From positions 1-60,659 of the forward strand of contig CAZEEJ010000005.1 of the NCBI GenBank assembly GCA_964511155.1: 60,659 bases of DNA. Reading direction: 5' to 3'. The notes under the pieces were generated by a model. The model was not told the origin of the DNA. It was given only the letters and a program-made list of their open reading frames with translations, and searched no databases. The DNA is from an uncultured Planctomycetales bacterium. Its GTDB lineage: Bacteria; Planctomycetota; Phycisphaerae; UBA1845; PWPN01. The translations under genes and the position numbers were made by a program. Positions 47,416 through 60,659 of this stretch are shown here, piece after piece. Within the stretch, counting starts at the first letter, position 1, and each line of letters opens with the position of its first letter.

Positions 47416-47507
47416 GCTCCGCTTCCTCCGCTACCGCCTCCCTATGATGATATCCGTCCGCCGGGCCGGTTTCTATCCGGGTCGCAAGCGACCCGGCTAA
47501 ACGGCTG

Positions 47508-47545
47508 CCTCCTGTCTTCTGTCTCCTGTCTCCTGTCTTCTCTCC
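47508..47545. repeat. CT-rich heptamer microsatellite (CTGTCTY)n in the leader of the giant protease gene
   Basis: CCTCCTGTCTTCTGTCTCCTGTCTCCTGTCTTCTCTCC, read directly. Confidence 0.6.
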
Positions 47546-47586
47546 AACAAAAACCCCCTGTCCGCCTGCGAGAGGCGGACAGGGGG
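47546..47586 (-). terminator. Rho-independent terminator after the 861-aa secreted protein gene
   Basis: 13-bp perfect stem CCCCCTGTCCGCC / GGCGGACAGGGGG with a 7-nt loop. On the minus strand it is followed by TTTTTGTT. It begins 33 nt after the stop. Confidence 0.75.
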
Positions 47587-47618
47587 CTCGAAATCATCAG
47601 GCGATACGACGAACCGGA

Positions 47619-50204
47619 TTAGTCGTCGCAGGCCGGGTCGGCGTCCACGCCCGCACCGCTGTAGCAGGCCTCGAACGCCAGGAAGTCCGTCGCATCGACG
47701 GCACTGTTGAGATCCCGATCGAAGCACCAGCAGTTGTCTTCATCGAAGACCCCTTCCGGATCGCCGGGGCCGGTGTAGCAGAGCTGCCAGGCACCGAAGT
47801 CCAGCATGTCCACGTCACCGTCGTCGTCGATATCCGCGAACGGCTCGTTGCACCGGCGGCAGACCTCCTGACCCTCGCAGTCGGGATCGTCGCAGTCGGT
47901 GAGCCCGTCGCAGTCGTCGTCCGCCTCGTTGTCGCACACCTCCGGAACACCCGCGATGGTGATCACGCACACGGCGCCGAGGATGTCCGTGCAGCGTTCC
48001 TTGGTGCCGCAGTCATCGGTCACCTCGCAGCAGTAGTTACCCCCGTCGGCGCAAGTGGCCGCCAGGATCCGGTAGGCGCTGTCCGTCGCGCCCTGGATCG
48101 GCTGCCCGTTGAGCTTCCACTGGAAGGTGAGGGTGCCCGTGCCGCTGGCGTAGGTGTTCATCCAGTGACCGTTCTCGCCCAGATTGACGACCCCGCCGTA
48201 GCCCACGTGGGAGATGGACGGGCCATCGCTGATGAACAGCCCCGCGGCCGCGGTGACGATGGGATCGCCACCCTCATTGCAGTCGTCCCAGAGCGTGCAG
48301 CGGTACTGCGTGTTGTGGTCCTGGGTGGTCACGCCGGTGAGGGTCAGCGTCGCGGTATCCGTCCCGGAGACACTTCCGACGTCCGTCATGTCATCCCAGG
48401 TCGTCAGGCTGGCGTTGTACTTCTGCCACTTGTAGGTGATGTCCCCCACGCCGCTGGCGTTCACCGTGAAGCTGACGTTCGAGTTAATGCAAGCGCTCTT
48501 GGTGGCAGGCTGCGCAACGATCTGGAGGCCGATCTTCAGGACGGTTGCATCGCTGATGATCACGCCATTGTCGCCGCAGATGATGACCGTCAGCAGGGAG
48601 TTGGCGTCACTGGCCGGGATGTTGCTCAGCGACAGGTTGGCGGTCTGGGCACCGGAAACGTTGGCGCCGTCGACCAAGTCGACGCCGTCCTTCTGCCACT
48701 GATAGGTCAGGTTGGTGTCACCGCTCGCGGTCACGCTGACGTTGGCCGAGCCGTCCGGGCAGGCAACGACCATATCAACGGGCTGGGCGGTGATCTGCGG
48801 TCCGCCGCTGCCGCCCTTGTTCAACGTGAACGTGGCGGTCGTGGTGCTGCTGGAGTTGGGCCCATCCGGCGGGGACCAGATCCGCAGGTACTCCCGTGCG
48901 TTGTCGATGGTATAGAGGTTGCCGACGGCATCGAAGGCCACGTCCTGGACGGCACCGCTCGGTGTGCCGGCAAGCCGGCTCACCACGAGGTCGAAAACAA
49001 CCTGCCCGTTGGCCATGTTGTAGAAGTACACGGTGCCGTTCACCCCATGGCCATACGCGATCCAGCCCTTGGGCGAATGGCCGCCGATGCCTCTGGCGTA
49101 GGTGTAAGGCGAAGCCGCAGAGGCTTCCCAGGTCGGCGTGGCCAGCGGCGGGGTACCGTTGAGGAACTTGGAAATCGGCGGGGCCTGATTCGGGCTGGCC
49201 CGGTACTGGTTGACGTACCAGTCGCCATTGGCATCGCCTTCAAAGTCGTAGGGGTAATAGGTGAAGTACGATCGCGGAATAAACTGCGTGCCCTGGTCAC
49301 CCGGGGTCACGATGTCGTTGCTGCCGAGATCGTAGCGGATGATGCCCTTGCGCGCGGTGTCCAGGTAGTTATCGTTGACCAGGTAAATCTGCCGGTTGCC
49401 CGCCGCCTTGGTCCCGGTCACGTAGATGCTGCGCACATACTGGGCCGAGGACCGGTTGCTGGCATCGATGAGCTGCGTGGCGACGGACATATCGTCGTTG
49501 AACTCAAAGACCAGGTCGCGGTTGTAGTCGGCCACGTACACATGGCCGTCCGGGCCGATGGTCATTCGGAGGGGGGCGGAGTAGTTGGTCCCATCCCAGT
49601 TCCAGGTCAGGCCGCCCTGATGCACGCCCATGTCCACGGCATCGGCCCGCAGCATGTAGATGCCGTCCGTCATGGCCCGGCCGGTGGCCGTCGGCAGGTT
49701 GGAGGCCTGCGCCACGTAGATCCGGCCGTACTTCGAGCTGGCCGGGTTGGTGTTCACGCCGATACCCTGGGGACGCTCGAAGTGCGTGTCCTTGTTGGGG
49801 GTATCGTCAACGCTGATCTGCGTCCAGCTCGAGTACCCGAGGTCGGCGGCGGTGATCTTCACCTTGTACGGGCTGCCCGCGTTGTCCGCCCGGTCGCCGT
49901 TGTCTTTGCGGCCGTCCCACTGCCAGGTGTACTTGCCCTTCTTCTGTGAAGCGATGGTAATCGTCCGCACGGCCACGGAGTCCTTGTCGAGCACCTCGAT
50001 CTTCACGCCGGGCAGCACGTCCGTTCCCGCCGCGTCCTCGTTCAGGACGTAGTCGACCTTCAGCGTGCCGCACGTGTCCTCGTTCAAGCCCGTGGTGTTG
50101 ATGGACACCTCCGCCGGGTACACGTTACCCAGCACAACAGCCGGCAACATCGCCATGCAGGCTGCCGCCAGGCCCCCCACCAATTGTCGATAACCTTGTT
50201 TCAT
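47619..50204 (-). CDS. Secreted protein: FlgD-Ig-like N-domain, beta-propeller-like region, three Ig (I-set-like) modules, Cys/Asp-rich module and a dockerin/EF-hand-like tail ending ADPACDD
   Basis: Signal MKQGYRQLVGGLAAACMAMLPAVVLG with RBS AAGGAG. Repeated YQWQKDG / YKWQKYN / FQWKLNG Ig blocks. CDNEADDDCDGLTDCDDPDCEG. DIDDDGDVDMLDFGAWQLCYTGPG. Confidence 0.85.
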   Translation of the reverse strand: MKQGYRQLVGGLAAACMAMLPAVVLGNVYPAEVSINTTGLNEDTCGTLKVDYVLNEDAAGTDVLPGVKIEVLDKDSVAVRTITIASQKKGKYTWQWDGRKDNGDRADNAGSPYKVKITAADLGYSSWTQISVDDTPNKDTHFERPQGIGVNTNPASSKYGRIYVAQASNLPTATGRAMTDGIYMLRADAVDMGVHQGGLTWNWDGTNYSAPLRMTIGPDGHVYVADYNRDLVFEFNDDMSVATQLIDASNRSSAQYVRSIYVTGTKAAGNRQIYLVNDNYLDTARKGIIRYDLGSNDIVTPGDQGTQFIPRSYFTYYPYDFEGDANGDWYVNQYRASPNQAPPISKFLNGTPPLATPTWEASAASPYTYARGIGGHSPKGWIAYGHGVNGTVYFYNMANGQVVFDLVVSRLAGTPSGAVQDVAFDAVGNLYTIDNAREYLRIWSPPDGPNSSSTTTATFTLNKGGSGGPQITAQPVDMVVACPDGSANVSVTASGDTNLTYQWQKDGVDLVDGANVSGAQTANLSLSNIPASDANSLLTVIICGDNGVIISDATVLKIGLQIVAQPATKSACINSNVSFTVNASGVGDITYKWQKYNASLTTWDDMTDVGSVSGTDTATLTLTGVTTQDHNTQYRCTLWDDCNEGGDPIVTAAAGLFISDGPSISHVGYGGVVNLGENGHWMNTYASGTGTLTFQWKLNGQPIQGATDSAYRILAATCADGGNYCCEVTDDCGTKERCTDILGAVCVITIAGVPEVCDNEADDDCDGLTDCDDPDCEGQEVCRRCNEPFADIDDDGDVDMLDFGAWQLCYTGPGDPEGVFDEDNCWCFDRDLNSAVDATDFLAFEACYSGAGVDADPACDD

Positions 50205-51105
50205 CGCTCAGACACTCCTTTCCAAAAGAAGCCCACAACCGCCTTCCGCATCAGGAACTGTTTGCGTCAATGATGCCGGGAACCGATAACCATGGTCAGA
50301 CACGTGAGCGGGCCGACGGCAACCGCTGCCGCACCGGGATAAGAGCCCGCCTACACACGCCAACCTGTTCTTCCATTTGCACAAGAACTGTACCGAACCA
50401 CTCGAACCGCCTCGGGACGTTCCAGCCACTGTACATCGTCCGCGGGACGGACACACAACACTTGAATCGGAAGGAAATGCACTGTCCGGCAGCTATCGGA
50501 CCGGAATACCCATGCGCTTCCTTCCCCACGGCCTCCACCTGCCCCACTGTGTTCCATACCCTCCGCCGCGGCCCCACACCGGACTTGCACGCCTCGGACG
50601 TCGGGGGAGCCCAGCCGACGCCGCGGCCTCATATGCCGAACGCCATTATAACCGATGCGGCGCCAGGTAAAAGCAGAATGTTCGGGCAAAGAGCATTTTG
50701 CGGACCGCGCCCGACCCGACCAGACGCGCTATAGCCGACAACAGACTGTCCGATAAGGGCTTACGTGATCCGGCTGAGCTCTTGGACCAGGGTTCAGTCC
50801 GCTCATTTTTTTCTCGGCCGGTTCAAGGAACACCGGACAGGTCGGGCGAGAGGGTGGCCCATCCTCGCTGGGCAAGGGTGAGCGGCTGAAGTAACTGTGG
50901 TATCATGCCCGGCGGCGCGGTACGTGTTGAGCGTCCGGGGACTGGCTCTTTTTTGCCGGCGTGAAGGCTTTCCACGCGGTTCAGTCGCTTGACGGCCTGG
51001 CGGCGCCGTTGCGTGAGAACGGCCGCAAGGCAAAAAAGTGCCTGTCCCCCTTCCGAGGACGCTCAACACATACGCGGCGCGTCGCCGCAGGGAGGAGGTC
51101 TGCAA

Positions 51106-52530
51106 GTGGACTATCCGCTGTTCGAGGTGCCCCGCATGGGGGGCGGCATGTTCGTCGGAATCGTGGCCATCATCCACGTAGCGATTGCCCAGTTGGCCGT
51201 CGGAGCGGGGATGTTCATCGCCGTGGCTCACACCCTGGGAGTACGGAACAACGACCGGCTGCTGCTCGACTTCCTCGCCCGGTACGGGCGGTTCCTGGTG
51301 CTGCTGGCGTTCGTCAGCGGAGCGATCACCGGCGTGGGGATCTGGGTGACCATCTCGCTGGTCAGCCCACCCTCCACCAGTATGCTGATCCACCTGTTCG
51401 TCTGGGGTTGGGCGATCGAATGGGTGTTCTTCCTCGTCGAGATCGTCGCGGGGTACATGTACTACTACGGGTGGAACCGGCTGACCCCGCGACGGCACAT
51501 CGCGGTGGCGTGGATCTACGCCTTCGCGGCGTTCATGAGCCTGGTGGTGATCAACGGGATCATCACCTTCATGCTGACGCCGGGCGACTGGCAGCCGCCG
51601 TGGGTGGACGCGGACTACGACGGGCAGCGGGCGTTCTGGACCGCGTTCTTCAATCCGACCTACTGGCCGTCGCTGGTGCTGCGGACGATCTCGTGCATGG
51701 CCCTGGCGGCCATCTCGGTGGCGCTGGTGGTCAACTGCATCCGCAGCTACTCGCGGGAACAGAAGACGCGGATCATCAACCTGGGCAGCTACCTGCTGAT
51801 GCCCATCGGGCTGATGGCCCCGGCGGCGGCGTGGTACTTCTTCGCGTTGCCGGAAAACGCGCGGAGCTTCGCCTTCGGCGGGGCGATCGCAATGACGCTC
51901 TTCTTCGCGTTCGGCGTGGTGTCGAGCATCTACATTGCCGGTTACGCCTACTGGGCCCTGATCCGCAACCGGAGCTACGCGAACCTGCAGACGTCCGCCC
52001 TGCTGCTGGCCGTGGCCGTAGTTGCCACCGGGTCCATCGAGTTCATGCGCGAGGGCATTCGCAAGCCCTACCTGGTCCACGGGCACATGTACAGCAACGG
52101 CATCCTGGTCACGGACGATGGCATGCGCGACCGAATCGACCGCGAGGGCATCCTGGCCCACGCCCGGTTCGCCTACCCGCCGACCATGAGCCTCGAGGAC
52201 GTGCACCGCCTGCCGCCGCACGAGATGGGGCGCTTCGTCTACAACGCCCAGTGCCGCATGTGCCATCAGCCCAACGGCACCAACGACCTGGCCCCGCTGA
52301 TCAACCAGTCCTCACGCGAGCTGGTGATGAAGATGACTTCCGAGCTGCACGAGTTGAAGCATTTCATGCCGCCGTTCATGGGCACCGAGCAGGAGAAGCG
52401 GGCCCTGGTCGAGTACCAGTTGTACCTGGCGCGTGGCGAGAACTACACCCCGCCGATGGACGCGAGGCCCGCGTCGGCCGTGGAGCCGACGCCCCGGCGA
52501 ACGGCGACGAACCAAGGAGAAGTGCGATGA
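51106..52530 (+). CDS. Cytochrome bd-superfamily CydA-like membrane protein fused to a C-terminal mono-heme cytochrome c domain
   Basis: GTG start with GGAGGAGG 8 nt upstream. TM1 His (AIIHVAIAQ). WAIEWVFFLVEIVAGYMYYYGW matches the CydA AIEG..FFLES region. C-terminal CRMCH (CxxCH) plus FMPPFMG Met-ligand-like motif. Confidence 0.8.
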   Translation: MDYPLFEVPRMGGGMFVGIVAIIHVAIAQLAVGAGMFIAVAHTLGVRNNDRLLLDFLARYGRFLVLLAFVSGAITGVGIWVTISLVSPPSTSMLIHLFVWGWAIEWVFFLVEIVAGYMYYYGWNRLTPRRHIAVAWIYAFAAFMSLVVINGIITFMLTPGDWQPPWVDADYDGQRAFWTAFFNPTYWPSLVLRTISCMALAAISVALVVNCIRSYSREQKTRIINLGSYLLMPIGLMAPAAAWYFFALPENARSFAFGGAIAMTLFFAFGVVSSIYIAGYAYWALIRNRSYANLQTSALLLAVAVVATGSIEFMREGIRKPYLVHGHMYSNGILVTDDGMRDRIDREGILAHARFAYPPTMSLEDVHRLPPHEMGRFVYNAQCRMCHQPNGTNDLAPLINQSSRELVMKMTSELHELKHFMPPFMGTEQEKRALVEYQLYLARGENYTPPMDARPASAVEPTPRRTATNQGEVR

Positions 52531-53705
52531 TCCTGGCCGCCGTATCGATCCCCGCGCTGGACCCCGTCGGGTTGCCCGCCCCGCCGGCGCTGTTTGTATT
52601 CCTGCACCTGCTGACCATGCTGCTGCACGTGCTGTTCATGAACTTCGTGCTGGGCGGCAGCGTGCTGGCAGTGGGGCTGAACGTCGCGGCTGCCGCGGGG
52701 CGACGGGAGGCCAATCCGATCGCCATCCTGATCCACCAGGCCATGCCGCCGATGATCAGCATGGCCGTCACCATGGGCGTGGCCCCCCTGCTGTTCGTCC
52801 AGACGCTGTACGGCCCGTTCTTCTACAGCGCCAACGTGCTGATAGGCTTCGCCTGGTTCTCGTTCGTGGTCGTGCTGCTGGTGGGTTTTTACCTGACCTA
52901 CTGGCTGACGTACCGCGGCAGTAACGCCCTGCAAGGCCGGATCGGAACCTGGGACGACAAGCCCCTGCGACGGCTGGCGGTGGGCACGCTCACCGCCGCA
53001 GGTTTTCTGTGGATCGCCTGGATCCTGACCAACAACCACGAGTTGAGCCTGCGGCCCGACCTCTGGGCGAACGAAGGCGCGTGGCGCAGCCCGCGCTGGT
53101 ATGTGCCCTCGGCCAGCACCCTCCCGCGATACTTGCACAACGTGGTCGGAGCCACCGCGGTGGCGGGCCTGTGGGTCGCGGCCATGGGCTGGTGGCGCGT
53201 CCGCCGGGGCACGGGCGAGCCCGAGGCCCAATTCGGCATGATCCGGTTGGGGCTCTTCGTTGCCGCCGGCCTGACCGCGGTGCAGATCGCCGTGGGGTTC
53301 TACTTCCTGTTCTCGCTCGACGGTGCGGTGGTCAGGCACATGGTCGGGTTCAAGACCCTCCTGGGTGGGATCTGGTCGGTGGCGCTGCTGGTGGCCCTCA
53401 TGCTGCCGATGGCTCTGGCCTTCGCGGCCATGCAGGTCCGCCGATTCGCCTGGTTCGCCGCGTCGGGCGGAGCGACCGTGCTGGTGGTGGCGGGCATGCT
53501 CTGCGGCCACGAGCAGGTGCGGCTGAGTTCGCTGGGCCGGCTCGAGCCCGAGCCCTTCTCCCTCGGTCTGTGGCAGGTCTTCCCGCAATGGACCAGTGTC
53601 ACCCTCTTCGCCCTCCTGCTGCTGGGCGGCCTGGGCACCGTCGGCCTGATGCTCTACTGGATCACCGACCGCACGGCCGCGGAGCGCACCCATAAGACAC
53701 CTTAA
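52527..53705 (+). CDS. Polytopic membrane protein, translationally coupled partner of the CydA-like protein
   Basis: ATGA overlap at 52527-52530. 392 aa with about 10 hydrophobic helices, starting MILAAVSIPALDPVGLPAPPALFVFLHLLTMLLHVLF. Corresponds to the C-terminal part of the listed 914-aa ORF. Confidence 0.7.
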   Translation: MILAAVSIPALDPVGLPAPPALFVFLHLLTMLLHVLFMNFVLGGSVLAVGLNVAAAAGRREANPIAILIHQAMPPMISMAVTMGVAPLLFVQTLYGPFFYSANVLIGFAWFSFVVVLLVGFYLTYWLTYRGSNALQGRIGTWDDKPLRRLAVGTLTAAGFLWIAWILTNNHELSLRPDLWANEGAWRSPRWYVPSASTLPRYLHNVVGATAVAGLWVAAMGWWRVRRGTGEPEAQFGMIRLGLFVAAGLTAVQIAVGFYFLFSLDGAVVRHMVGFKTLLGGIWSVALLVALMLPMALAFAAMQVRRFAWFAASGGATVLVVAGMLCGHEQVRLSSLGRLEPEPFSLGLWQVFPQWTSVTLFALLLLGGLGTVGLMLYWITDRTAAERTHKTP

Positions 53706-53712
53706 CCGCCCT

Positions 53713-53795
53713 CCGCACCCGCGGGACGCCGGTGCCACACGGTAGCGGTCGCCCCCCGACTTCGGCGAGCTCAGCCGAGCCGTGGCGACCGGCGT
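53713..53795. repeat. Composite family C/D repeat copy
   Basis: CCGCACCCGCGGGACGCCGGTGCCACAC followed by GGTAGCGGTCGCCCCCCGACTTCGGCGAGCTCAGCCGAGCCGTGGCGACCGGCGT. Matches 31309-31418. Confidence 0.8.
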
Positions 53796-53797
53796 AC

Positions 53798-53892
53798 AAC
53801 GAGCCGCGGGCTTCAGCCCGCGCGGCTCTCCGGTCGGGATCAACGCTTCCCTCACGCACAAGCACCGCGCGGGCTGAAGCCCGCGGCTCGTT
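53798..53892. repeat. Perfect 28-bp inverted repeat pair (AACGAGCCGCGGGCTTCAGCCCGCGCGG / CCGCGCGGGCTGAAGCCCGCGGCTCGTT) separated by 39 bp
   Basis: Read directly. Each arm also contains its own hairpin CGCGGGC-TTCA-GCCCGCG. Confidence 0.85.
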
Positions 53893-53919
53893 AGATACTA
53901 GACCTGGCCATGCGTGCCT

Positions 53920-54175
53920 GCGTGCCGGCGTTCAACGCATCATCTTGAACGGCAGCTTCGTCACGGATATAATAGAACCGAACGACGTGGACTGCGCGCT
54001 GCTGATCGGGCGAGGTTTTCCGAAGGATCGGGCGGCGGAAACGGAGCTTCGTGCTGGCCTGCCGTTCCTGGATATCGCGATCGTCCGACGAACGGACTTC
54101 GAGCGACTGGTCAAGGTGGTGTATGCGACCGATCGTTACGATGCGCCGAAAGGCATGATAGAGGTTATCTCATGA
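53920..54175 (+). pseudogene. 5'-truncated remnant of a DUF6932-like (GSFVT-motif, nucleotidyltransferase-fold-like) gene
   Basis: QRIILNGSFVTDIIEPNDVDCALLI... looks like the C-terminal half of that family. No plausible in-frame start lies between the repeat DNA and the conserved block. The listed ORF start (53732) lies inside family C/D repeats. Confidence 0.35.
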
Positions 54176-54372
54176 GCCTCAAGACTGACCGAGAACTCGC
54201 CAACACAAAGCGCAAGCTTCGTCTTCTGCAAGCCAGTCTCGAAGAGGCGCGCACTGACCCTGACGAGGATGAGCACATCCGCGAAGTGACGATGGAATCA
54301 CTCCGACGCCTGATCAACCAGTTCACGGAAGAGATCGCGCGCTACCAAGCCCATCAGCCGGCACGGCCATGA
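54172..54372 (+). CDS. Small (66 aa) helical protein coupled to the truncated upstream ORF
   Basis: ATGA overlap at 54172-54175. MSLKTDRELANTKRKLRLLQASLEEARTDPDEDEHIREVTMESLRRLINQFTEEIARYQ, predicted helical hairpin. No family recognised. Confidence 0.4.
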   Translation: MSLKTDRELANTKRKLRLLQASLEEARTDPDEDEHIREVTMESLRRLINQFTEEIARYQAHQPARP

Positions 54373-54427
54373 ACCAAGTACCCCAATCGCTCCCCAAAGT
54401 CCAAAGGACTTGGGCCACCCGGCCTAC

Positions 54428-54495
54428 AGGGCCGCGACCGTGAGGGAGCGGTTCTTCTCGACTGCGAGCGACCGCTCCCTGACGGTCGCGGCTCT
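54428..54495. repeat. Family E long hairpin (AGGGCCGCGACCGTGAGGGAGCGGT ... ACCGCTCCCTGACGGTCGCGGCTCT)
   Basis: Same stem sequence family as 2159-2220, with one stem mismatch and an 18-nt loop. Confidence 0.8.
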
Positions 54496-54560
54496 GAACA
54501 ACCGTCCCGCAGCCATCGAGGTCCGCAACGCCGGCGCGCAGAAACCAGGTGACGAGCCGG

Positions 54561-56999
54561 TCAGTCGTCGCAGGCGGGGTCGGCGGGGATCTCCGCGCCG
54601 GAGAAGCACAGACGCAAGCGGCTGAGGTCGTGCACATCCACGTCGCCGTCCTCACCCAGCCGGGCCCCCGCACAGGCGGGACCGTTTTGAGCCATGCCGG
54701 CACCGGTCAGGCAGGCTTGCAGCCGGGCGAAGTCGTCGAGGTCCACGTCGCCGTCCCGATCGAGGTCCGGCCCGACGCTACGCACATCGACGGATACCGC
54801 AAGGGTCTGCGAGCCGTTGAAGGCTTCCGGCGATGAAACGGTGATAGTAGCTTCGTGCACCCCGATGGGCAGGTCGGCCACGTCGTAGGATATCCCGATC
54901 ATGACGGGCTCGCTGCCGCACGTGCCGCTGTCCGGTTCCACGAGCAGCCAGTCGGCATCCACCGTCACGCTGTAGTTCAACGTCCCCGGCCCGGTATTGG
55001 CGACCGCGAAGCTGCCGGCGGTCAGGTTCTCTCGCCAATGGACGGAGCGCTCGAGCCGGTCGGGGCTGCGCCACAGCGTGGGAACCTCGATGACCACGCC
55101 GAAGGGGTTGGTGAAGGAGCTGCCGCCCTGGCCGGCCATTTCCGCCCGGACATAGGTGTCGATCCCGGGCGTGTTGAAGTAGTCGAGCGTCGGGCCGACG
55201 TGGATCACCACGCCCGCGGAGATCCAGCGGTAGTTCGCCTCGGGGAGCGGCTGATCGCCGGAGGAGGCAAATACCGTTATTGTACCCCCTGCGGCATCGC
55301 GAACGATCGCCTCGATCACCGGGGTCTGAGCGACGCTGCGAGACGCCGTCGGGGCGGTGGCCACGGAGCTGAAGTAGAACTGGCCGCGTTCCAGCGCCTC
55401 GCGGGCATGGCCCTCGGTCAGGCCAGCGAGGAGTAAGGTATTCCAATCGCGGCCGAGATGGCTGAGCGTGTGCATATCGTCGCAGGCAAGCCCCCATACG
55501 GGCCGGTCGGGCATCAGAATCGCCAGAACCTGGTCCCAGAGGTGCAGATCGTTGCCGGGCCAGACCGGCGACCAGTTGCCGTTGTAACGGCCACCCTGGT
55601 TGATGACCTCGAGACCGATGAGATGGTCGTACGTGGTGAACCAGCCGACGTAATCCTGAACCGTGTAGGTGTAGCGGCCGGGATGGTTGAGCACGGCCAG
55701 GCCGCCGGCCGCACCGACCTCCGTGAGCGTCTGCTCGAGATTGCTCGACGTGGTTTCGTACTGGATGAAGAAACTGTTCATGTGGTGGTGCTGGGATGTT
55801 TCGTTACCCGCGGTCGCCACCATGCCGAGCAGACCCGGGTCCCGGCCCCAGTTCTGCCACGGCCAGGTGCAGCGGTTGTGGTCGGTGAGGGCGAGGATCG
55901 TGTAGTCCCGCTGATGGTACTCGTCGATCGCCTGGGACGGGCTGAGGGAACCGTCACTCTGCGTCGTGTGGGTGTGCAGGTTGGCCTTGTGCTGCACGAA
56001 CGTGCCCCAGTCCACGTCCGCATACGGGTCTACCAGCGTGATCCATTCGTAGGCGAACACCTGGACGGACAAATCATCATCTTCGAGGCCCGCGTCGTTG
56101 GTTGTGGCGATCGTGGCGCGGCCCGCCGAGCCGATGTCCACGTGGATGGTTTGCTGATCGGGCCCCCCGGCGGCGAAGAGCACGGTCAGCACCCCGCCCG
56201 CCCCGCCGACGGGTGCCGCGACGGCCGGGTTGTCCGACGTGAGCGTGACCTGCACCGGATGAACGGCATTGCTGCCGGGCGCGATGGCCAGCACGACCGG
56301 CAGGTCCGCTTGGCCGGCCATCGTACGGATGAAGTCGGGCGTCAGGCGGACCCCGGTCACCGGCGGGCTGAAGGTGACGGTGAGCTTGGGTCTGCGGGCG
56401 GCATCCGTGCTCTCGCTACTGCGGATCTGAACGCCATCGGTGCCGGTCGGGCGGAAGATCCACCCGCGATTGCCCGTCGGGTTCGCCTGCCAGCCGACGA
56501 GGCTCGCCGTGACATTCAGGTCCATGCCGCCCAGAACACCGCCGTTGGCAGTGCCGACCAGGGCACCGTATTCATCGGGCTGTACGCCGGCATCGCCACC
56601 GAAGTTGTTGTACGTGGTGGACGCGGTCCAGGGCACCAGGACCTCGTTGACGTTACCGGCATGCCCGATATTGATGATGTCACAGGTGAGGATCGCCGAC
56701 TGGATCGTCGCCCCCGGCGGGATCTGCCCGGGGCCCGAGCCGAAGAGCCCCTCGAAGCGCAGCAGGCCATAGTTGACGCCCCCACCGTCGTCACCATCCC
56801 ACTCGATAACCGCAGCGGAGCCCTGCGGGGTGTCCGCCGCGGAACCTTTCAGGAACGTGTCCACCGCCCCGGCGTAGCCGCCCGCCCCCTGCTGGAAGAC
56901 AAGGCTCTCCGCCAAAACAGGCGACCCGGCAGCCAGCGTCACCAGAACCAGGGACACCAGCAGGGCGGCGCCTCTCTCCACCTGCCAAGGATATGCCAT
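54561..56999 (-). CDS. Secreted PHP-domain (metal-dependent phosphoesterase fold) protein with DNRLRE-like N-domain and a dockerin/EF-hand-like tail ending ADPACDD
   Basis: ATG at 56999 (MAYPWQVERGAALLVSLVLVTLAAGSPVLA) with GGAGG 8 nt upstream. PHP motif HTHTTQSDGS...ALTDHN. Tail DLDRDGDVDLDDFARLQACLTGAG...GEDGDVDVHDLSRLRLCFSGAEIPADPACDD. Confidence 0.85.
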   Translation of the reverse strand: MAYPWQVERGAALLVSLVLVTLAAGSPVLAESLVFQQGAGGYAGAVDTFLKGSAADTPQGSAAVIEWDGDDGGGVNYGLLRFEGLFGSGPGQIPPGATIQSAILTCDIINIGHAGNVNEVLVPWTASTTYNNFGGDAGVQPDEYGALVGTANGGVLGGMDLNVTASLVGWQANPTGNRGWIFRPTGTDGVQIRSSESTDAARRPKLTVTFSPPVTGVRLTPDFIRTMAGQADLPVVLAIAPGSNAVHPVQVTLTSDNPAVAAPVGGAGGVLTVLFAAGGPDQQTIHVDIGSAGRATIATTNDAGLEDDDLSVQVFAYEWITLVDPYADVDWGTFVQHKANLHTHTTQSDGSLSPSQAIDEYHQRDYTILALTDHNRCTWPWQNWGRDPGLLGMVATAGNETSQHHHMNSFFIQYETTSSNLEQTLTEVGAAGGLAVLNHPGRYTYTVQDYVGWFTTYDHLIGLEVINQGGRYNGNWSPVWPGNDLHLWDQVLAILMPDRPVWGLACDDMHTLSHLGRDWNTLLLAGLTEGHAREALERGQFYFSSVATAPTASRSVAQTPVIEAIVRDAAGGTITVFASSGDQPLPEANYRWISAGVVIHVGPTLDYFNTPGIDTYVRAEMAGQGGSSFTNPFGVVIEVPTLWRSPDRLERSVHWRENLTAGSFAVANTGPGTLNYSVTVDADWLLVEPDSGTCGSEPVMIGISYDVADLPIGVHEATITVSSPEAFNGSQTLAVSVDVRSVGPDLDRDGDVDLDDFARLQACLTGAGMAQNGPACAGARLGEDGDVDVHDLSRLRLCFSGAEIPADPACDD

Positions 57000-57075
57000 C
57001 GGGCTCACCTCCAACTGTTAAGGATAGGTAAAGACAACGGAGAACTCAAGGCGGTGCGGGCCAGAAGAAGCCCCG

Positions 57076-57226
57076 GCCCACAGATCACTCAGATGACGTA
57101 ACGTGGGCTCTGCCCACAACCCAAAACGAATCTCACGCAGAGGCGCAGAGACCGCAGAGACACTCAGCAACGCCTCTCTCTGCGATCTCTGCGCCTCTGC
57201 GTGAGATCTCCTCTGGCTGTGGGCAT
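57076..57226. repeat. Family F copy (57076-57097) followed by a large nested palindrome (about 57110-57226; core arms ATCTCACGCAGAGGCGCAGAGACCGCAGAGA / TCTCTCTGCGATCTCTGCGCCTCTGCGTGAGAT)
   Basis: Read directly. Outer arms CTGCCCACAACC / GGCTGTGGGCAT. Lies in the divergent spacer between the PHP and STAND genes. Confidence 0.8.
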
Positions 57227-57526
57227 AACCCGCGCTGCGACACCTGTGGATCATCTCCTGACTCGGACTACTGATCGGTCAGTGTGTGCTGGAAAGCAAG
57301 GCGCTCCCCGCCGACGGGCATCGCCGCTTCACTGCGTAGAGATCGCCCCCGGTGCCGGGGCCGACACCATGCAGAGTAGCTCCTGCATGCCGTTACGGAT
57401 GGTGAAGCAAGAGGCTTCCGCACACCGCCAAACTGGCATATACTGTGGGCTGCAACACGTGGCTGGCCGGCTCCGCCGGGGGACAAGCCCGGCCACCGCT
57501 CTGCGGGACAATCAGAGGATCGCCCG

Positions 57527-60500
57527 TTGGCCAAGGCCCCTACAGACGCTGCCTTCGTTATTACGGCCGCCGGGGTTGCGGGATTCGCCGTGCTGTGCGC
57601 GACGGGGATCGTACCCACCGCCGTCTTGGCAAGCGCGACAGGCGGCCTGGGTGCCAGCGTGCTCGCCGGCGTAATCGCCAACGCTCTGAGCGCAGCGGCC
57701 CGCTGCACGCCTTCGCGCTTGCGTTCCTCCACCAGTCTGGGCAAAAACAACGACCTCGTCCGGCTCACGGCGGACGCCGCCTACCATTGTGCGCGGACGG
57801 TAACAGAGCGGCGCCCGCGCTGGAAAGTTTGCTGCTGGGGCGAGCGTCGGGCGCTGGGGCGGGCCGCCCGCAGACTGCGAGAACAGTGGGCCAACGTGGA
57901 TGCGTCGAGTCTGGGCGAGACCTGCCGCTCTGAACGGGTCGTTGACTGGTTCCGGCAATCCATGACCGATGCGGCGGGTATTCCCGCTCCCCTGGATCTG
58001 CACCAGTGGAGGAACTTGGTCTACAACGCATGCGACGGCAAGCTCGCCACCAAGTTGCGCGACGAGTTGGCGGCCGAACTCCACGCGAAGTTCACGCGCT
58101 GGGTGCGCGAGCGTTTCAAGGCCGACGCCATGGGCGACACCCCGGCCAAGGGGCGCGCCTACGCCGCCCTCCAGATGGCGTTGCTGGGCGGGTTGTATGA
58201 AGCGATAACCCAGGTAGCCGATTCCAGCGAGCGCACCAGGGTGGGCGTCGATCAGCTTACCAAGGCCGTCGAGGACATCCGCCGGCGCGTCGACGACATC
58301 GCCAAAGCCCACCCCGACCTGAGCGAACTGGCCAACCAACTCCGGCAATCCGAAGCTCGATTGCTCGAAGCCATCGGCGCCAACCACGCGCCGCTTATCA
58401 CGCTTCCCAAGCCCGATCCCGAGGGCCCCCGCTTCGTCTTCCGTACCGAGCGGCTCACGCTTGTCGGCCGCGAGGCGGAACTGGCGGAACTCAACGGCTG
58501 GCTCGACGAAGAGCGCCCGTTCTCCTGGGATCTGTGGACCGGCCCAGCCGGCAGCGGCAAAAGCCGACTAGCTCTCCGCCTATGCCGCGAGCGGACGAAA
58601 GAGGGCTGGCGAGCGGGTTTCTACGACCACCAGAGCGACCACCCCGTCCGTTGGGACAACTGGGACCCTGCCCGCGACACCCTGATCGTCTTCGACTACG
58701 TTCACGAACGCGCCGATAAGATCGGCGCTGCCCTGCGCACACTGGCCGGCCGGTCGTGGCCCAAGGGGCGACGCGTGCGCGTGCTGTTGCTGGAGCGCGA
58801 GATCGCGCGACCGCCGGACGCCCCCAAGGAGGACGTACCGACCAAGGTCACCCAGGCGTTGCCCGGCTGGTTTGACGAGCTGATTCGTGAAGGCAAGCAG
58901 AACCCCGCCCCCTTCCGCGAGACGCACGCCCGTCAGGACATCGAACGACCCGAGCGTCCCATCGCCGGTGTGGATGACGACGCCCTTGCTGCCATGGTGC
59001 GGGAGGAGACGCGGCTTGCGACGGACGGAACGCCCGCTGTGATCGAGGATGATGAGGTCGCGAAGCGCATCAACATCATCAAGCAGATCGACCCGCGCGC
59101 CCGCCCGCTCTTCGCCGCGATGGCCGCCGAGGCGATTCGCGAGAACACGGCGACTGATGCTACGCTCGCGAAATGGGACGTTCGCGAACTCGTCGACTAC
59201 ATCCGCGACAAGGAGCACACCCGCTGGACCAAGGCATTGAAGGGGCATGGCGTCAGCGAATCTGCCGCCATCGCCCGCTGGGAGCGCTTTGCGTGCCTGG
59301 CCACCATGTGCGGGGGCTTGATCGGCGACGCCCGCCGAAAGGCCTTGACCCATAGCAACGCGGGGCTGCCGAATCGGGAAGACTGGCGCAACGGCGAGAC
59401 CTACCGCCTGCTGATCGCGGGCGGCTCCAACGACGAAGCCGCCCCCCTCGAACCGGATGTACTCGGCGAGGCATACGTACTCGATTGGCTTGGGGATGAT
59501 CCGGACTTTGCCAAGGGACTCGTTGATCTGGCCTGGCAAGTGGGTTCCGGAAGCGGCCAAGGAGCCAGCGGCCGCGCAGGCGGCGCCGGCTTTGCCGGCT
59601 TCCTCACCCGGGCGGCGCAGAACTTCCCCGACCATCCGATGGTCGATCAACTCCTTGCCCCCATCTCGGTAGCCGATCCGAGAGCCCTGGCCAACGCCCA
59701 CCTTGCGCGCACCCTGCGCCCCTTCCTGGCCGGTGATTTGACAAAACTTGCCGCACGCGGCCGCACGCTCCTGCTTGCCCCAGAGCAGCCCCCGCTCGTG
59801 CGGACACTCGGCGCACTCATGTGGACCCAAGGCCCTTTCTCCGCGGAGGCCCTCGACGAGTTGCTCGACGAGGTAGGTCCACTCAACAACCAACACACCG
59901 AGGACGCCGCCGTACGCGAGCTGTTGGCCCAGGGGCTGGCCAACGCGATCGCCCACGCCGGGGCCGACCACGACCGGGCGGACCGGCTGCTGGACGAGCT
60001 ACGCACGCTGCAACAGCAGCACGCCGAGGACGCCGCCGTGCGCGAGCAGTTGGCCAAGGGACTGAACAACGTCATCTTCCACGCCCGGGCCGACCACGAC
60101 CGGGCGGACCGGCTGTTGGACAAGCTGCGCACACTGCAACAGCAGTACGCCGAGGACGCCGCCGTACGCGAGCCGTTGGCCAAGGGGCTGAACAACGCCA
60201 TCGCCCACGCCGGGGCCGACCACGACCGTGCGGACCGGCTGCTCGACGAACTGCGCACCCTGGACCAGCGGTACGCCGATGACGCCGCCGTGCGCAGGCA
60301 GTTGGCCAACGGGCTGTTCAATGCCTTTAACAACGCCGGGGCCGACCACGACCGCGCGGACCGGCTGCTGGACGAGCTACGCGCACTGCAACAGCAGCAC
60401 GCCGAGGACGCCGCCGTACGCGAACGGTTGGCCAAGGGGCTGACCAACGCGATCGCCCCCGCCGGGGCCGACCACGACCGCGCGGACCGGCTGCTGAAAG

Positions 60501-60659
60501 AGCTACGCACACTGCAACAGCAGCACGCCGAGGACGTCGCCGTACGCGAGCTGTTGGCCAAGGGACTGAACAACGCCATCGCCGACGCCGGGGCCGACCA
60601 CGACCGGGCGGACCGACTGCTGGACGAGCTACGCACACTGCAACAGCAGCACGCCGAGG
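57527..60659 (+). CDS. STAND-type P-loop NTPase with N-terminal TM helices and a C-terminal 42-aa helical (TPR-like) repeat array; runs off the right window edge
   Basis: Not in the ORF track. The frame with codon starts congruent to 2 mod 3 is open from the TAG at 57377-57379 to the window end. Walker A WTGPAGSGKSRLAL (58541 onward), Walker B-like TLIVFDYVHE. TM stretch AAFVITAAGVAGFAVLCATGIVPTAVLASATGGLGASVLAGVIANAL. Start proposed at TTG 57527 (GAGGA 7 nt upstream). Alternatives are GTG 57590 and ATG 57962. Confidence 0.8.
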   Translation, partial: MAKAPTDAAFVITAAGVAGFAVLCATGIVPTAVLASATGGLGASVLAGVIANALSAAARCTPSRLRSSTSLGKNNDLVRLTADAAYHCARTVTERRPRWKVCCWGERRALGRAARRLREQWANVDASSLGETCRSERVVDWFRQSMTDAAGIPAPLDLHQWRNLVYNACDGKLATKLRDELAAELHAKFTRWVRERFKADAMGDTPAKGRAYAALQMALLGGLYEAITQVADSSERTRVGVDQLTKAVEDIRRRVDDIAKAHPDLSELANQLRQSEARLLEAIGANHAPLITLPKPDPEGPRFVFRTERLTLVGREAELAELNGWLDEERPFSWDLWTGPAGSGKSRLALRLCRERTKEGWRAGFYDHQSDHPVRWDNWDPARDTLIVFDYVHERADKIGAALRTLAGRSWPKGRRVRVLLLEREIARPPDAPKEDVPTKVTQALPGWFDELIREGKQNPAPFRETHARQDIERPERPIAGVDDDALAAMVREETRLATDGTPAVIEDDEVAKRINIIKQIDPRARPLFAAMAAEAIRENTATDATLAKWDVRELVDYIRDKEHTRWTKALKGHGVSESAAIARWERFACLATMCGGLIGDARRKALTHSNAGLPNREDWRNGETYRLLIAGGSNDEAAPLEPDVLGEAYVLDWLGDDPDFAKGLVDLAWQVGSGSGQGASGRAGGAGFAGFLTRAAQNFPDHPMVDQLLAPISVADPRALANAHLARTLRPFLAGDLTKLAARGRTLLLAPEQPPLVRTLGALMWTQGPFSAEALDELLDEVGPLNNQHTEDAAVRELLAQGLANAIAHAGADHDRADRLLDELRTLQQQHAEDAAVREQLAKGLNNVIFHARADHDRADRLLDKLRTLQQQYAEDAAVREPLAKGLNNAIAHAGADHDRADRLLDELRTLDQRYADDAAVRRQLANGLFNAFNNAGADHDRADRLLDELRALQQQHAEDAAVRERLAKGLTNAIAPAGADHDRADRLLKELRTLQQQHAEDVAVRELLAKGLNNAIADAGADHDRADRLLDELRTLQQQHAE
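59897..60659 (+). repeat. Six complete 126-bp tandem repeats, plus the start of a seventh, inside the STAND gene
   Basis: Unit boundaries at 59897, 60023, 60149, 60275, 60401, 60527 and 60653. Consensus AEDAAVRExLAKGLxNAIxxAGADHDRADRLLDELRTLQQQH. Confidence 0.9.

What the first reader, a model, noticed from the sequence alone, without database searches (positions are those of the whole stretch)
57527..60659. Unlisted STAND NTPase with predicted N-terminal transmembrane module: candidate NLR-like conflict/defence sensor
The supplied track misses this gene because the ORF never terminates inside the window; three long antisense ORFs are listed in its place. Reading the frame directly gives four parts. 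The first is a hydrophobic stretch of about 45 aa that could form two TM helices. The second is a helical/coiled-coil region of about 250 aa (DQLTKAVEDIRRRVDDIAKAHPDLSELANQLRQSEARLLE). The third is a P-loop NTPase (GPAGSGKSRLAL, hhhhD Walker B LIVFDY). The fourth is a helical array of 42-aa repeats. An N-terminal effector-like module, a STAND NTPase and a C-terminal repeat sensor together form the architecture of bacterial NLR-like/Avs-type immune and conflict proteins. Membrane-inserting N-termini are one known effector class. The neighbourhood (VapBC, decayed cassette, repeat-rich spacers) looks accessory. This N-terminal module matches no family I recognise.
Basis: partly seen in the sequence, partly recalled or inferred. 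Interest (0 to 1): 0.75.

Follow-up and report, generated by a model that had tools for sequence, protein, structure and literature searches.

The report
Membrane-anchored bacterial NLR-like STAND NTPase
The window ends in a real but incomplete gene for a bacterial relative of animal and plant NLR immune receptors; its front end is a membrane-embedded module that no domain library describes, though the same module sits at the front of hundreds of other bacterial NLR-like proteins.

Summary
A + strand ORF runs from TTG 57527 off the window end (1044 codons). It is absent from the ORF list only because it has no stop codon.

The gene is real. The closest homolog (67% identity, a Phycisphaerae MAG) starts at the same TTG behind the same GGAGGA. 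dN/dS is 0.35 over the codons upstream of ATG 57962.

Anatomy:
- a hydrophobic hairpin (aa 8-58);
- a conserved helical domain and coiled coil (aa 74-286);
- a STAND NTPase with NBD, HD and WHD (aa 313-657). hhalign gives probability 100% against nSTAND_NTPase5-bearing proteins, and the Foldseek top hits are SAMD9 and Avs5;
- at least six 42-aa helical-hairpin repeats that are 82-92% identical in DNA, with variation confined to one face of helix A.

The N-terminal module has no match in Pfam, NCBIfam, PADLOC or PDB. Even so, it defines a family of at least 592 clusters at 50% identity, almost always N-terminal, fused to NB-ARC, NACHT, AAA_16-type NTPases or TPRs. In the same NTPase clade, hydrolase, trypsin, HNH and SMEK domains occupy that position, so it is the effector slot.

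Most likely this is a single-gene NLR-like sensor that perturbs the membrane when it oligomerises. A defence role is inferred, not shown: neighbourhoods are unconserved and mostly housekeeping. It is a new variant of a known kind.

The parts
57515..57519 (+). Shine-Dalgarno-like GAGGA, 7 nt before the start codon
   Evidence: Read directly from the sequence. The ortholog L001 has GGAGGA, a 7-nt spacer and TTG at the aligned position.
57527..60659 (+). Partial CDS of 1044 codons with a TTG start and no stop inside the window: an NLR-like STAND NTPase
   Evidence: GC3 0.82; 15 close homologs, the best at 67% identity over 100% of the query.
57548..57700 (+). N-terminal hydrophobic hairpin, aa 8-58. 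AF2 predicts helices at 7-25 and 42-59. It is Gly/Ala-rich, and helix 2 carries the family motif GGxxG(N/G)
   Evidence: Kyte-Doolittle 19-residue maximum is 2.17. The summed Hessa scale is 0.36 for helix 1 and 2.5 for helix 2. Of 152 family members, 80 have about two such segments and 48 have one, all upstream of the NHD motif. The N-terminal tail carries a net charge of +2.7. AF2 pLDDT is below 50 here.
57746..58222 (+). Conserved cytoplasmic all-alpha domain of the N-terminal module, aa 74-232. Motifs: N74-x-D76-L, W121, W161, F189, R194-E-x-x-K198-x-D200, G209, Q216
   Evidence: Residue frequencies across 152 sequences: N74 95%, W161 97%, G209 96%, D200 92%. AF2 pLDDT is about 80-89. No match in Pfam, NCBIfam or PDB.
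58226..58384 (+). Coiled-coil hairpin linker, aa 234-286
Evidence: AF2 helices at 234-261 and 263-286.
58463..58966 (+). Nucleotide-binding domain, aa 313-480. Walker A GPAGSGKS at 58541-58564; Walker B LIVFDY at 58682-58699; sensor-1-like RVRVLLLER at 58772-58798
   Evidence: Invariant columns G342, G344, K345, D390, R418, E423 and R424 in 25 sequences; coordinates; strand/helix order.
58976..59497 (+). Helical domain (aa 484-547, with RPLF at 526-529 as a GxP-like motif) and winged-helix domain (aa 552-657, with LEPDVLGEAYVL at 641-652)
   Evidence: Invariant P527, L528, P643, G647, E648 and L652. AF2 pLDDT about 90. The hhalign match covers this region.
59501..59893 (+). Non-repetitive helical spacer leading into the repeat array, aa 659-789
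   Evidence: AF2 helices. This is the least conserved segment against the ortholog, at 49% identity.
59894..60659 (+). Array of 42-aa helical-hairpin repeats with 126-bp units. Six full units span aa 790-1041, and the array is cut by the window end
   Evidence: TRF: period 126, 6.1 copies, 86% matches. Units are 82-92% identical in DNA. Five of 42 positions (10, 13, 16, 20, 21) hold 55 of 123 pairwise nonsynonymous codon differences and none of the 75 synonymous ones. AF2 pLDDT is above 93.

Best explanation
This is the 5' four-fifths (at least) of a single-gene, NLR-like STAND NTPase from a Planctomycetota-type (Phycisphaerae-like) genome, and it reads as three modules.

- Sensor (inferred). 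The C-terminal alpha-solenoid is an array of near-identical 42-aa helical hairpins. Its variable residues lie on one face of helix A. It most likely binds a ligand from an invader, or from a perturbed self component.
- Switch (fold and motifs shown, mechanism inferred). The central NBD-HD-WHD module belongs to the nSTAND5-related clade. By analogy with solved STANDs, it converts ligand binding into nucleotide-dependent oligomerisation.
- Output (inferred). The N-terminal module is a Gly/Ala-rich hydrophobic hairpin that probably sits in the inner membrane with both ends in the cytoplasm. It is followed by a conserved, roughly 160-aa all-alpha domain and a coiled coil. Oligomerisation would cluster these hairpins and perturb or permeabilise the membrane, giving growth arrest or death of the cell.

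Shown here: the gene and its start, the domain order, STAND homology, the family-wide conservation and N-terminal placement of the module, and the pattern of repeat variation. Inferred: membrane insertion, the permeabilising output, and a conflict or defence role.
For: - Gene and start.
- STAND membership. hhalign probability 100%, E 8e-48. phmmer and profile hits to proteins carrying PF25199 and PF13191 at 1e-26 to 1e-54. Foldseek top PDB hits are SAMD9 at 1.2e-5 and EfAvs5 at 2.5e-5. Walker A, Walker B, sensor-1, GxP-like and WHD motifs are invariant.
- The N-terminal position is an effector slot. Within the same NTPase clade it is occupied by DUF676-type alpha/beta-hydrolase (9 loci), SMEK_N (8), trypsin-like peptidase (4-5) and HNH (1). 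DUF4062, Ser/Thr kinase and Trypsin_2 also occur there.
- The N-terminal module is a shuffled domain. 592 representative clusters match at E<=1e-3 and 344 at E<=1e-10, nearly always at the N-terminus. Partners are NB-ARC (11 of 57), NACHT (6), AAA_16 (12) and TPR-only proteins. In Planktothrix it is a separate gene 83 nt upstream of an NB-ARC-TPR gene.
- Hydrophobic hairpin. It is conserved across the family, strongly hydrophobic in distant members (KD up to 3.4), and preceded by a positively charged tail.
- Repeat variation. Helix A has 75 nonsynonymous and 31 synonymous differences; helix B has 25 and 44. Copy number differs between homologs.
- Precedent. Membrane-targeting N-terminal domains of bacterial NLRs and their partners act in abortive infection (10.1101/2024.11.07.622273; 10.1101/2020.01.06.895854). 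2TM SLATT effectors occur in conflict systems (PMC7159879).
Against: - No match to any PADLOC, NCBIfam or above-threshold Pfam model.
- No phenotype data exist.
- Neighbourhoods of 10 related loci are unconserved and mostly housekeeping. Examples: PGK, GAPDH, SecY, ribosomal proteins. Among 70 neighbouring ORFs there is one AbiE pair, one SNF2/ZorD-like helicase and two IS110 transposases. Only one immediate neighbour hits a candidate defence model, and that locus (L007) lacks this N-terminal module.
- Membrane insertion rests on hydropathy scales only. Helix 2 of this protein is marginal (Hessa sum 2.5), one homolog (P0007) has no 19-residue window with KD>=1.5, and 13 of 152 show no such segment.
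- AF2 gives no confident structure for aa 1-72.
- The gene is incomplete and its C-terminus could not be recovered.
Confidence: 0.55

Rival explanations
1. It is a membrane-tethered STAND signalling or scaffold protein with a non-immune cellular role, such as envelope or developmental regulation. On this reading the N-terminal module is an anchor plus adaptor that positions the ATPase at the membrane, not a death effector.
For: Many STAND clades are non-defence; 391 of 589 are not classed as defence-associated in PMC13581612. Flanking genes are mostly housekeeping and no defence island was seen. There is no PADLOC hit. The N-terminal module carries no recognisable catalytic or pore-forming signature.
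Against: In the same NTPase clade the N-terminal slot holds classical toxic effectors: hydrolase, trypsin, HNH and the TIR-like DUF4062. The module is shuffled among NB-ARC, NACHT and nSTAND5-type NTPases. Repeats with concentrated nonsynonymous variation and variable copy number fit a fast-evolving receptor. The family is rare and patchy, with 15 close homologs among 5.8 billion clusters and the best at 67%. Gene context is not conserved.
Confidence: 0.27
2. The polarity is reversed. The membrane hairpin and its helical domain sense a membrane or periplasmic disturbance, such as phage injection or envelope damage. The C-terminal repeats then serve as the scaffold or output that recruits another protein.
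For: TM regions of some bacterial NACHT proteins have been proposed to sense intramembrane or periplasmic signals (Kibby et al. preprint). No enzymatic effector is present anywhere in the protein.
Against: The loop between the two hydrophobic helices is only about 5 residues in this protein, leaving nothing exposed to sense. The cytoplasmic part of the module is highly conserved, while the repeats are the variable part, as expected of a receptor. No conserved partner gene exists to be recruited.
Confidence: 0.1
3. Translation starts at ATG 57962, or the ORF is a decayed or spurious high-GC reading frame, so no membrane module is made.
For: TTG is a rare start codon. High-GC DNA yields long spurious ORFs, and three occur on the opposite strand here.
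Against: Homologs conserve residues 1-145, at 63% identity to P0001. dN/dS is 0.35 for codons 1-145 and 0.48 for codons 1-60. The ortholog has the same SD, 7-nt spacer and TTG. GC3 is 0.82. The profile of aa 1-292 finds hundreds of N-terminal matches. There is no in-frame stop over 1093 codons.
Confidence: 0.03

Closest known systems
nSTAND_NTPase5-type STAND NTPases (Pfam PF25199) with TPR-like C-termini
   Same: The NBD-HD-WHD core and the following helical repeats are homologous (hhalign probability 100%, E 8e-48, 557 columns). The shared motifs are GxGKSRLA, hhhhDY, VRVLLxER, PLF and LxPDLLGExFVL. The tripartite layout of effector, NTPase and repeats is the same.
   Different: The window protein scores below the Pfam gathering cut-off (23 bits against 34). 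Its N-terminus is the 2-helix hydrophobic module rather than DUF4062, trypsin or a hydrolase. Its repeats hit no TPR model.
Avs (AVAST) and bNACHT antiphage NLR-related proteins, e.g. EfAvs5 (PDB 9jap)
   Same: Single-polypeptide design of N-terminal effector, STAND NTPase and C-terminal helical-repeat sensor. EfAvs5 and AVAST5 filaments are among the best structural matches.
   Different: No PADLOC or NCBIfam Avs/bNACHT model matches. The effector is membrane-embedded rather than an enzyme such as SIR2 or a nuclease. No phage-sensing or protection data exist, and the gene is not in a recognised defence island.
Bell/Babybell, HeLo/HELL, MLKL-4HB and plant CC domains: membrane-targeting cell-death domains of NLR systems
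   Same: An all-alpha N-terminal module with a hydrophobic N-terminal helix, attached to an NLR or encoded next to one. It is found both fused and as a separate adjacent gene (10.1101/2020.01.06.895854; 10.1101/2024.11.07.622273).
   Different: It is about three times larger (roughly 290 aa against 80-130 aa). It has two hydrophobic helices that are not modelled as packed inside the bundle (pLDDT below 50). There is no Pfam HeLo or HELL hit and no significant fold match. The N-terminus (MAKAPTD...) does not show the MEPIS-type motif those papers describe.
SLATT 2TM effector domains of nucleotide-signalling conflict systems
   Same: A two-TM hairpin plus a cytoplasmic helical part, used as the predicted pore-forming output of a conflict system (PMC7159879).
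   Different: No SLATT Pfam model matches at E<=1. Here the module is fused to a STAND NTPase rather than activated by a nucleotide second messenger.

Membership tests
STAND NTPase superfamily | Walker A GxxxxGK[ST] | tested here: met
   GPAGSGKS at aa 339-346; G342, G344 and K345 are invariant in 25 sequences.
STAND NTPase superfamily | Walker B hhhhD followed by a second acidic residue | tested here: met
   LIVFD390 is invariant. An acidic residue sits at +4 (E394; D/E in most homologs), as in the NACHT motif DGxDE.
STAND NTPase superfamily | Conserved Arg (sensor 1) at the end of the strand after Walker B | tested here: met
   RVRVLLLER424. R418, E423 and R424 are invariant, and AF2 places a strand at 417-424. 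The assignment is by position only.
STAND NTPase superfamily | Helical domain with a GxP-type motif, then a winged-helix domain with a conserved His-type motif | tested here: inconclusive
   The RPLF motif (P527, L528 invariant) opens a helix of the helical domain. The WHD carries an invariant LEPDxxGE but no conserved His.
STAND NTPase superfamily | Fold similarity to solved STAND proteins | tested here: met
   Foldseek against PDB gives SAMD9 (9zjv, E 1.2e-5), EfAvs5 (9jap, 2.5e-5) and AVAST5 (9nc9, 2e-3), each with probability 1.00. TM-scores are low (0.16-0.28) because the model has several domains.
Pfam PF25199 nSTAND_NTPase5 | Score at or above the gathering threshold of 34 bits | tested here: not met
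   23 bits, E 7.6e-5, aa 329-426.
Pfam PF25199 nSTAND_NTPase5 | Homology to proteins that pass the model | tested here: met
   hhalign of A1 against A7: probability 100%, E 8.4e-48. Profile hits to P0015-P0017 at 1e-38 to 1e-54.
Known antiphage STAND systems (Avs1-5, bNACHT and other PADLOC or NCBIfam models) | Match to a system-specific HMM | tested here: not met
   PADLOC best hit is LmuB at 3.4e-4 on the coiled coil, and no Avs or NACHT model matches. NCBIfam finds nothing below E 0.003.
Known antiphage STAND systems (Avs1-5, bNACHT and other PADLOC or NCBIfam models) | Protection against phage; enrichment next to defence genes | tested here: inconclusive
   The phenotype cannot be tested with these tools. 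For context, 1 of 10 immediate neighbours hits PDC-S34. Among 70 neighbouring ORFs there is one AbiE pair and one ZorD/DpdE-like helicase.
Bell / HeLo-like membrane-targeting domains | Sequence or fold match to HeLo, HELL or Bell; a single hydrophobic N-terminal helix cupped by a 4-5-helix bundle of about 100 aa | tested here: not met
   No Pfam hit at E<=1 in 11 members. The best Foldseek PDB E-value is 0.6. The module is about 290 aa with two hydrophobic helices. No Bell sequence was available for a direct comparison.
SLATT 2TM domains | Match to SLATT_1-6 models | tested here: not met
   None at E<=1.
TPR repeats | Match to a TPR model (34-aa or 42-aa type) | tested here: not met
   No TPR family at E<=1. 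AF2 does show two-helix hairpins forming a solenoid, and the 42-aa period equals that of TPR_10/TPR_12-type units in relatives.
Integral membrane protein (2-TM hairpin) | Two segments hydrophobic and long enough to span the bilayer; positive-inside charge distribution | tested here: inconclusive
   Helix 1 has KD 2.17 and Hessa sum 0.36, which is borderline favourable. Helix 2 has KD 1.77 and Hessa sum 2.5, which is marginal. Family-wide, 80 of 152 have about two segments, and the N-terminal tail carries +2.7 net charge. No dedicated TM predictor was available.

The most novel reading that the evidence does not exclude
The N-terminal module (hydrophobic Gly/Ala-rich hairpin, NHDL...W...W...F..RE.LK.DF..GGKA.A.LQ helical domain, then a coiled coil) is a previously undescribed and widespread family of membrane-resident execution domains of bacterial NLR-like proteins. 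It is unrelated in sequence and fold to HeLo, Bell, MLKL, CC or SLATT. Oligomerisation by any of several STAND clades (NB-ARC, NACHT, nSTAND5-like) turns it into a pore or membrane lesion. That would be a convergent bacterial counterpart of the plant resistosome and MLKL logic.
Probability: 0.35. Interest if true: 0.7.

Novelty: new variant of a known kind. Interest (0 to 1): 0.55.

Why it matters
Bacterial NLR-like STAND proteins are a large, mostly uncharacterised reservoir of immune receptors. Their N-terminal effectors define what the cell does once an invader is sensed.

This gene exposes an effector-position module that is absent from Pfam-A, NCBIfam, PADLOC and the PDB. The module nevertheless recurs in at least 592 sequence clusters and is combined with at least three different STAND clades. 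If it is a membrane-disrupting output, it adds a new class to the small set of membrane-targeting death domains (HeLo/Bell/MLKL/CC, SLATT, gasdermin). It would also give an easily testable, self-contained cassette (aa 1-290).

The near-identical repeats, with variation focused on one helix face, are a compact natural example of receptor diversification by repeat shuffling in a poorly studied phylum.

Tried and rejected
- Recovering the missing 3' end failed. The genome-contig scan with the family alignment did not contain the window (best hit 66%). An exact 48-mer search of metagenome contigs found nothing. A close-relative search of metagenome contigs found nothing. The contig probably breaks in the 126-bp array.
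- Naming the N-terminal module failed in every library tried:
  - Pfam on 11 members;
  - NCBIfam on 57 members;
  - a PDB profile search, which returned only designed helical repeats at E>=3.7e-4 with no significant stretches;
  - AF2 on the module alone (pLDDT 62), followed by Foldseek against PDB (best E 0.6) and BFVD (best E 1.6).
- A catalytic reading of the conserved N-H-D motif was rejected. The His is only 64% conserved and is Asn in the window protein.
- A word-index search with a broadened N-terminal-module alignment returned a single protein, so the index was probably swamped by Ala/Gly-rich words. A viral-contig scan with the N-terminal-module alignment could not be run because no stretch was conserved enough.
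- A first local HMM of the N-terminal module wrongly included the start of the NTPase and matched every locus. It was rebuilt on aa 1-235.
- Conserved operon partners were sought and not found.
- No Rfam family or tRNA lies near the gene. No sigma-70-like promoter was found upstream.


Full report
**Observation**

On the + strand, the frame of base 57527 is open from the stop TAG at 57377 to the last base of the window. The first possible start is TTG 57527, preceded by GAGGA (57515-57519) and a 7-nt spacer.

The mechanical ORF list omits ORFs that run off the source. It therefore shows only three long antisense ORFs over this stretch: 57512-58387, 58580-59971 and 59647-60636. Codon-position GC shows the + frame is the coding one. 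Its GC3 is 0.82, whereas the antisense ORFs have GC3 0.73-0.78 and GC1 0.80-0.91.

- a 51-residue uncharged hydrophobic stretch, aa 8-58;
- a helical region containing the quoted peptide;
- GPAGSGKS and LIVFD-Y;
- a 126-bp tandem array at 59894-60659 with 6.1 copies and 86% matches.

**The gene is real and starts at TTG 57527**

A search with aa 1-780 found 13 full-length-type homologs. The best is a 925-aa 'ATP-binding protein' from a Phycisphaerae MAG, at 67% identity over 100% of the query. It begins MGKADTDAVLVI... against MAKAPTDAAFVI... in the window.

In that ortholog's DNA (L001) the gene also starts with TTG, 7 nt after GGAGGA. A Nei-Gojobori comparison of the two genes gives these values:

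| Codons | dN | dS |
|---|---|---|
| 1-145 (everything upstream of ATG 57962) | 0.249 | 0.717 |
| 1-60 | 0.339 | 0.71 |

These values are similar to those for the NTPase domain. The alternative start at ATG 57962 is therefore very unlikely.

**Central module: a STAND NTPase**

Pfam alone gives only sub-threshold hits: nSTAND_NTPase5 at 23 bits against a cut-off of 34, and AAA_16 at 7.5e-4. PADLOC and NCBIfam give nothing meaningful. Four other lines of evidence settle the assignment.

- More distant homologs, at 1e-26 (phmmer) to 1e-54 (profile), carry PF25199 and PF13191 above threshold.
- A profile of the family aligns to a profile of eight PF25199-bearing proteins with hhalign probability 100%, E 8.4e-48, over 557 columns. 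The alignment runs from the GRE..EL..L..WL helix through the P-loop, helical and winged-helix domains into the repeats.
- The invariant columns in 25 sequences are the expected ones: G342, G344, K345 (Walker A); D390 (Walker B); R418, E423, R424 (end of the next strand, sensor-1 position); P527, L528 (GxP-like); and P643, G647, E648, L652 (WHD).
- An AlphaFold2 model built on that alignment has mean pLDDT 82, and above 90 for the NTPase and repeats. Its best PDB matches are the STAND proteins SAMD9 (E 1.2e-5), EfAvs5 (2.5e-5) and the AVAST5 filament.

A genome-contig scan found 80 loci with this NTPase core in Planctomycetota, Acidobacteriota, Alphaproteobacteria, Actinomycetota, Bacteroidota and others.

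**N-terminal module**

Residues 1-292 match nothing in Pfam, NCBIfam, PADLOC or the PDB by sequence. A separate AF2 model (pLDDT 62, with the bundle at about 80-87) has no significant Foldseek match in PDB or BFVD.

Yet a profile of these residues finds many relatives when searched exhaustively against 1.84 billion representative proteins. It finds 592 proteins at E<=1e-3 and 344 at E<=1e-10. Almost all carry the match at their N-terminus, in proteins of 163-1538 aa.

An alignment of the best 150 with the close family shows a genuine domain signature:
- N74 95%, D76 86%, L77 86%
- W121 86%, W161 97%
- F189 82%, K198 86%
- D200 92%, G209 96%

This signature is preceded by a hydrophobic region of median length 73 aa. 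By a crude criterion, 80 of 152 sequences have about two membrane-length uncharged hydrophobic segments, 48 have one, 11 have three and 13 have none. Where the two segments are separate, the N-terminal tail has a mean net charge of +2.7. Distant members such as P0006 and P0008 show a textbook arrangement of basic tail, TM1, acidic loop, TM2 and basic stretch.

In the window protein the hairpin is Gly/Ala-rich. Helix 1 has KD 2.17 and Hessa sum 0.36. Helix 2 is marginal, at KD 1.77 and Hessa sum 2.5, and the loop between them is about 5 residues. The second helix carries the family motif GGxxG(N/G)hxA. AF2 does not pack aa 1-72 against the bundle (pLDDT below 50).

I conclude, from hydropathy only, that this is most likely a resident inner-membrane hairpin with both ends in the cytoplasm. 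This is an inference, not a demonstration.

**What the N-terminal module is attached to**

Of 57 proteins carrying the module, Pfam finds NB-ARC in 11, NACHT in 6, AAA_16 in 12 and TPR families in about 22. Some carry the module followed by TPRs with no detected NTPase.

In Planktothrix (CP136572.1) a 333-aa module-only protein is encoded 83 nt upstream of a 747-aa NB-ARC-TPR gene, on the same strand. That second gene begins exactly at the GRE..L..WL motif. The module therefore occurs both fused to an NLR and adjacent to one.

Within the window's own NTPase clade, a local HMM restricted to aa 1-235 finds the module in 12 distinct loci: 10 Planctomycetota, one Vicinamibacterales and one Fimbriimonadaceae, plus one weak hit in Sphingobacteriales (taxa).

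The other loci of the clade have different N-termini:
- DUF676-type alpha/beta-hydrolase (9)
- SMEK_N (8)
- trypsin-like peptidase (4-5)
- HNH (1)
- DUF4062 and Ser/Thr kinase

This is the variable effector position that characterises NLR-like conflict systems (PMC7159879, PMC8195603; Kibby et al. preprint).

**C-terminal repeats**

Six complete 42-aa units (aa 790-1041) are 82-92% identical in DNA. AF2 models each unit as a helix-turn-helix in a regular solenoid, with pLDDT above 93.

Variation is not uniform:
- Five positions (10, 13, 16, 20, 21, spaced i, i+3, i+6, i+10, i+11 on helix A) hold 55 of 123 pairwise nonsynonymous codon differences and none of the 75 synonymous ones.
- Helix A has 75 nonsynonymous and 31 synonymous differences.
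- Helix B has 25 nonsynonymous and 44 synonymous differences.

Homologs have fewer units, from the full alignment and a crude motif count. This pattern matches the highly conserved, rapidly reshuffled repeats described for fungal and bacterial NLRs (10.1101/2020.01.06.895854). It suggests a ligand-binding face, but I ran no formal selection test.

No TPR model matches. I therefore call the repeats TPR-like by shape and period only.

The window ends inside the array, and none of three searches recovered the remainder. An assembly break at the repeats is the likely reason; that is inference.

**Context**

In the window the gene is divergent from an 817-aa BACON-domain protein (54561-57014, - strand). 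Further upstream lie a DUF6932 protein, a cytochrome-like membrane protein, an Ig-domain protein and a 2579-aa subtilase.

Around homologs the neighbours differ from locus to locus and are mostly housekeeping. Examples:
- MFS transporter and ThiC
- RF-1
- ABC and MlaD
- PGK and GAPDH
- SecY and ribosomal proteins

Among 70 neighbouring ORFs of 10 loci, PADLOC finds one AbiEi/AbiEii pair and one SNF2 (ZorD/DpdE-like) helicase. Two IS110 transposases are also present. Of ten immediate neighbours, only one hits a candidate defence model (PDC-S34), and that is in a locus (L007) that lacks this N-terminal module.

The gene is therefore a stand-alone unit with no conserved partner and no conserved housekeeping operon. 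Equally, there is no positive defence-island signal.

**Mechanism proposed**

The proposed chain has four steps:
- a ligand binds the variable face of the repeat solenoid;
- this releases autoinhibition of the STAND module;
- nucleotide-dependent oligomerisation follows;
- the membrane hairpins and their conserved juxtamembrane domains cluster, causing a membrane lesion and growth arrest or death.

Only the parts list and their homologies are shown here. Each arrow is inferred from what is established for solved STANDs such as Avs and SAMD9, and from precedent for membrane-targeting NLR outputs: Bab/Bell in abortive infection (10.1101/2024.11.07.622273), HeLo, ZAR1 and SLATT.

The main rival is a non-immune membrane-tethered STAND. 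It cannot be excluded, because most STAND clades are not defence-associated (PMC13581612) and the neighbourhood is uninformative.

**Comparison and novelty**

The protein works like an Avs or bNACHT-type single-chain NLR. It is a divergent member of the nSTAND5-related clade, below Pfam's own threshold.

Its N-terminal module resembles Bell/HeLo and SLATT in logic only. It fails the sequence and fold tests I could run for membership in those families.

As far as the libraries and papers available here show, the module is an undescribed domain family. I could not check supplementary domain catalogues of the large STAND surveys, so prior description under another name remains possible.

I rate the finding a new variant of a known kind, with interest 0.55.

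Noticed in passing
window 57130-57207: A 31-nt inverted repeat, 97% complementary, with a 16-nt loop (ATCTCACGCAGAGGCGCAGAGACCGCAGAGA / TCTCTGCGATCTCTGCGCCTCTGCGTGAGAT). It lies in the divergent intergenic region between the BACON-domain gene and the STAND gene. The arm occurs nowhere else in the window. It could be an operator, a transcript hairpin or a small repeat element.
   Followed up: partly
L087 8001-11328 (Planktothrix CP136572.1): A stand-alone 333-aa protein made only of the N-terminal module plus a Q-rich coiled coil lies 83 nt upstream of a 747-aa NB-ARC-TPR gene on the same strand. That gene starts at the GRE..L..WL motif. This is a split or genuinely two-gene version of the fused architecture, and it is seen in two assemblies.
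   Followed up: partly
window 59894-60659: The window, and probably the contig, ends inside the near-identical 126-bp repeat array. The true copy number and the C-terminal cap of the protein are unknown, and assemblies of such genes may collapse or truncate repeats.
   Followed up: yes
window 39676-57014: A run of very large secreted or surface-type proteins typical of Planctomycetota: a 2579-aa subtilase with BACON, Big_9 and dockerin domains; an 861-aa Ig-domain protein; and an 817-aa BACON-domain protein. There is also a 513-aa protein combining a cytochrome bd subunit I-like region with a cytochrome c domain.
   Followed up: no
window 52443-54372: A stretch with overlapping ORFs on both strands and only one domain hit (DUF6932, at 53732-54175 on the + strand). 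Two short - strand ORFs (52898-53239, 53300-53638) have very high GC3 but also high GC2, so gene calls here are uncertain.
   Followed up: no
L007 12392-13273: In a cyanobacterial MAG, a relative of the same NTPase clade with a different N-terminus is immediately followed by a gene matching the PADLOC candidate system PDC-S34 (E 4e-115).
   Followed up: no
L086 5001-6251 (IMG/VR UViG_3300045988_143198): This is the only relative of the NTPase clade found among 2.9 million viral contigs. It has 25% identity and sits on a 116-kb contig. The family is therefore not typically phage-borne.
   Followed up: no
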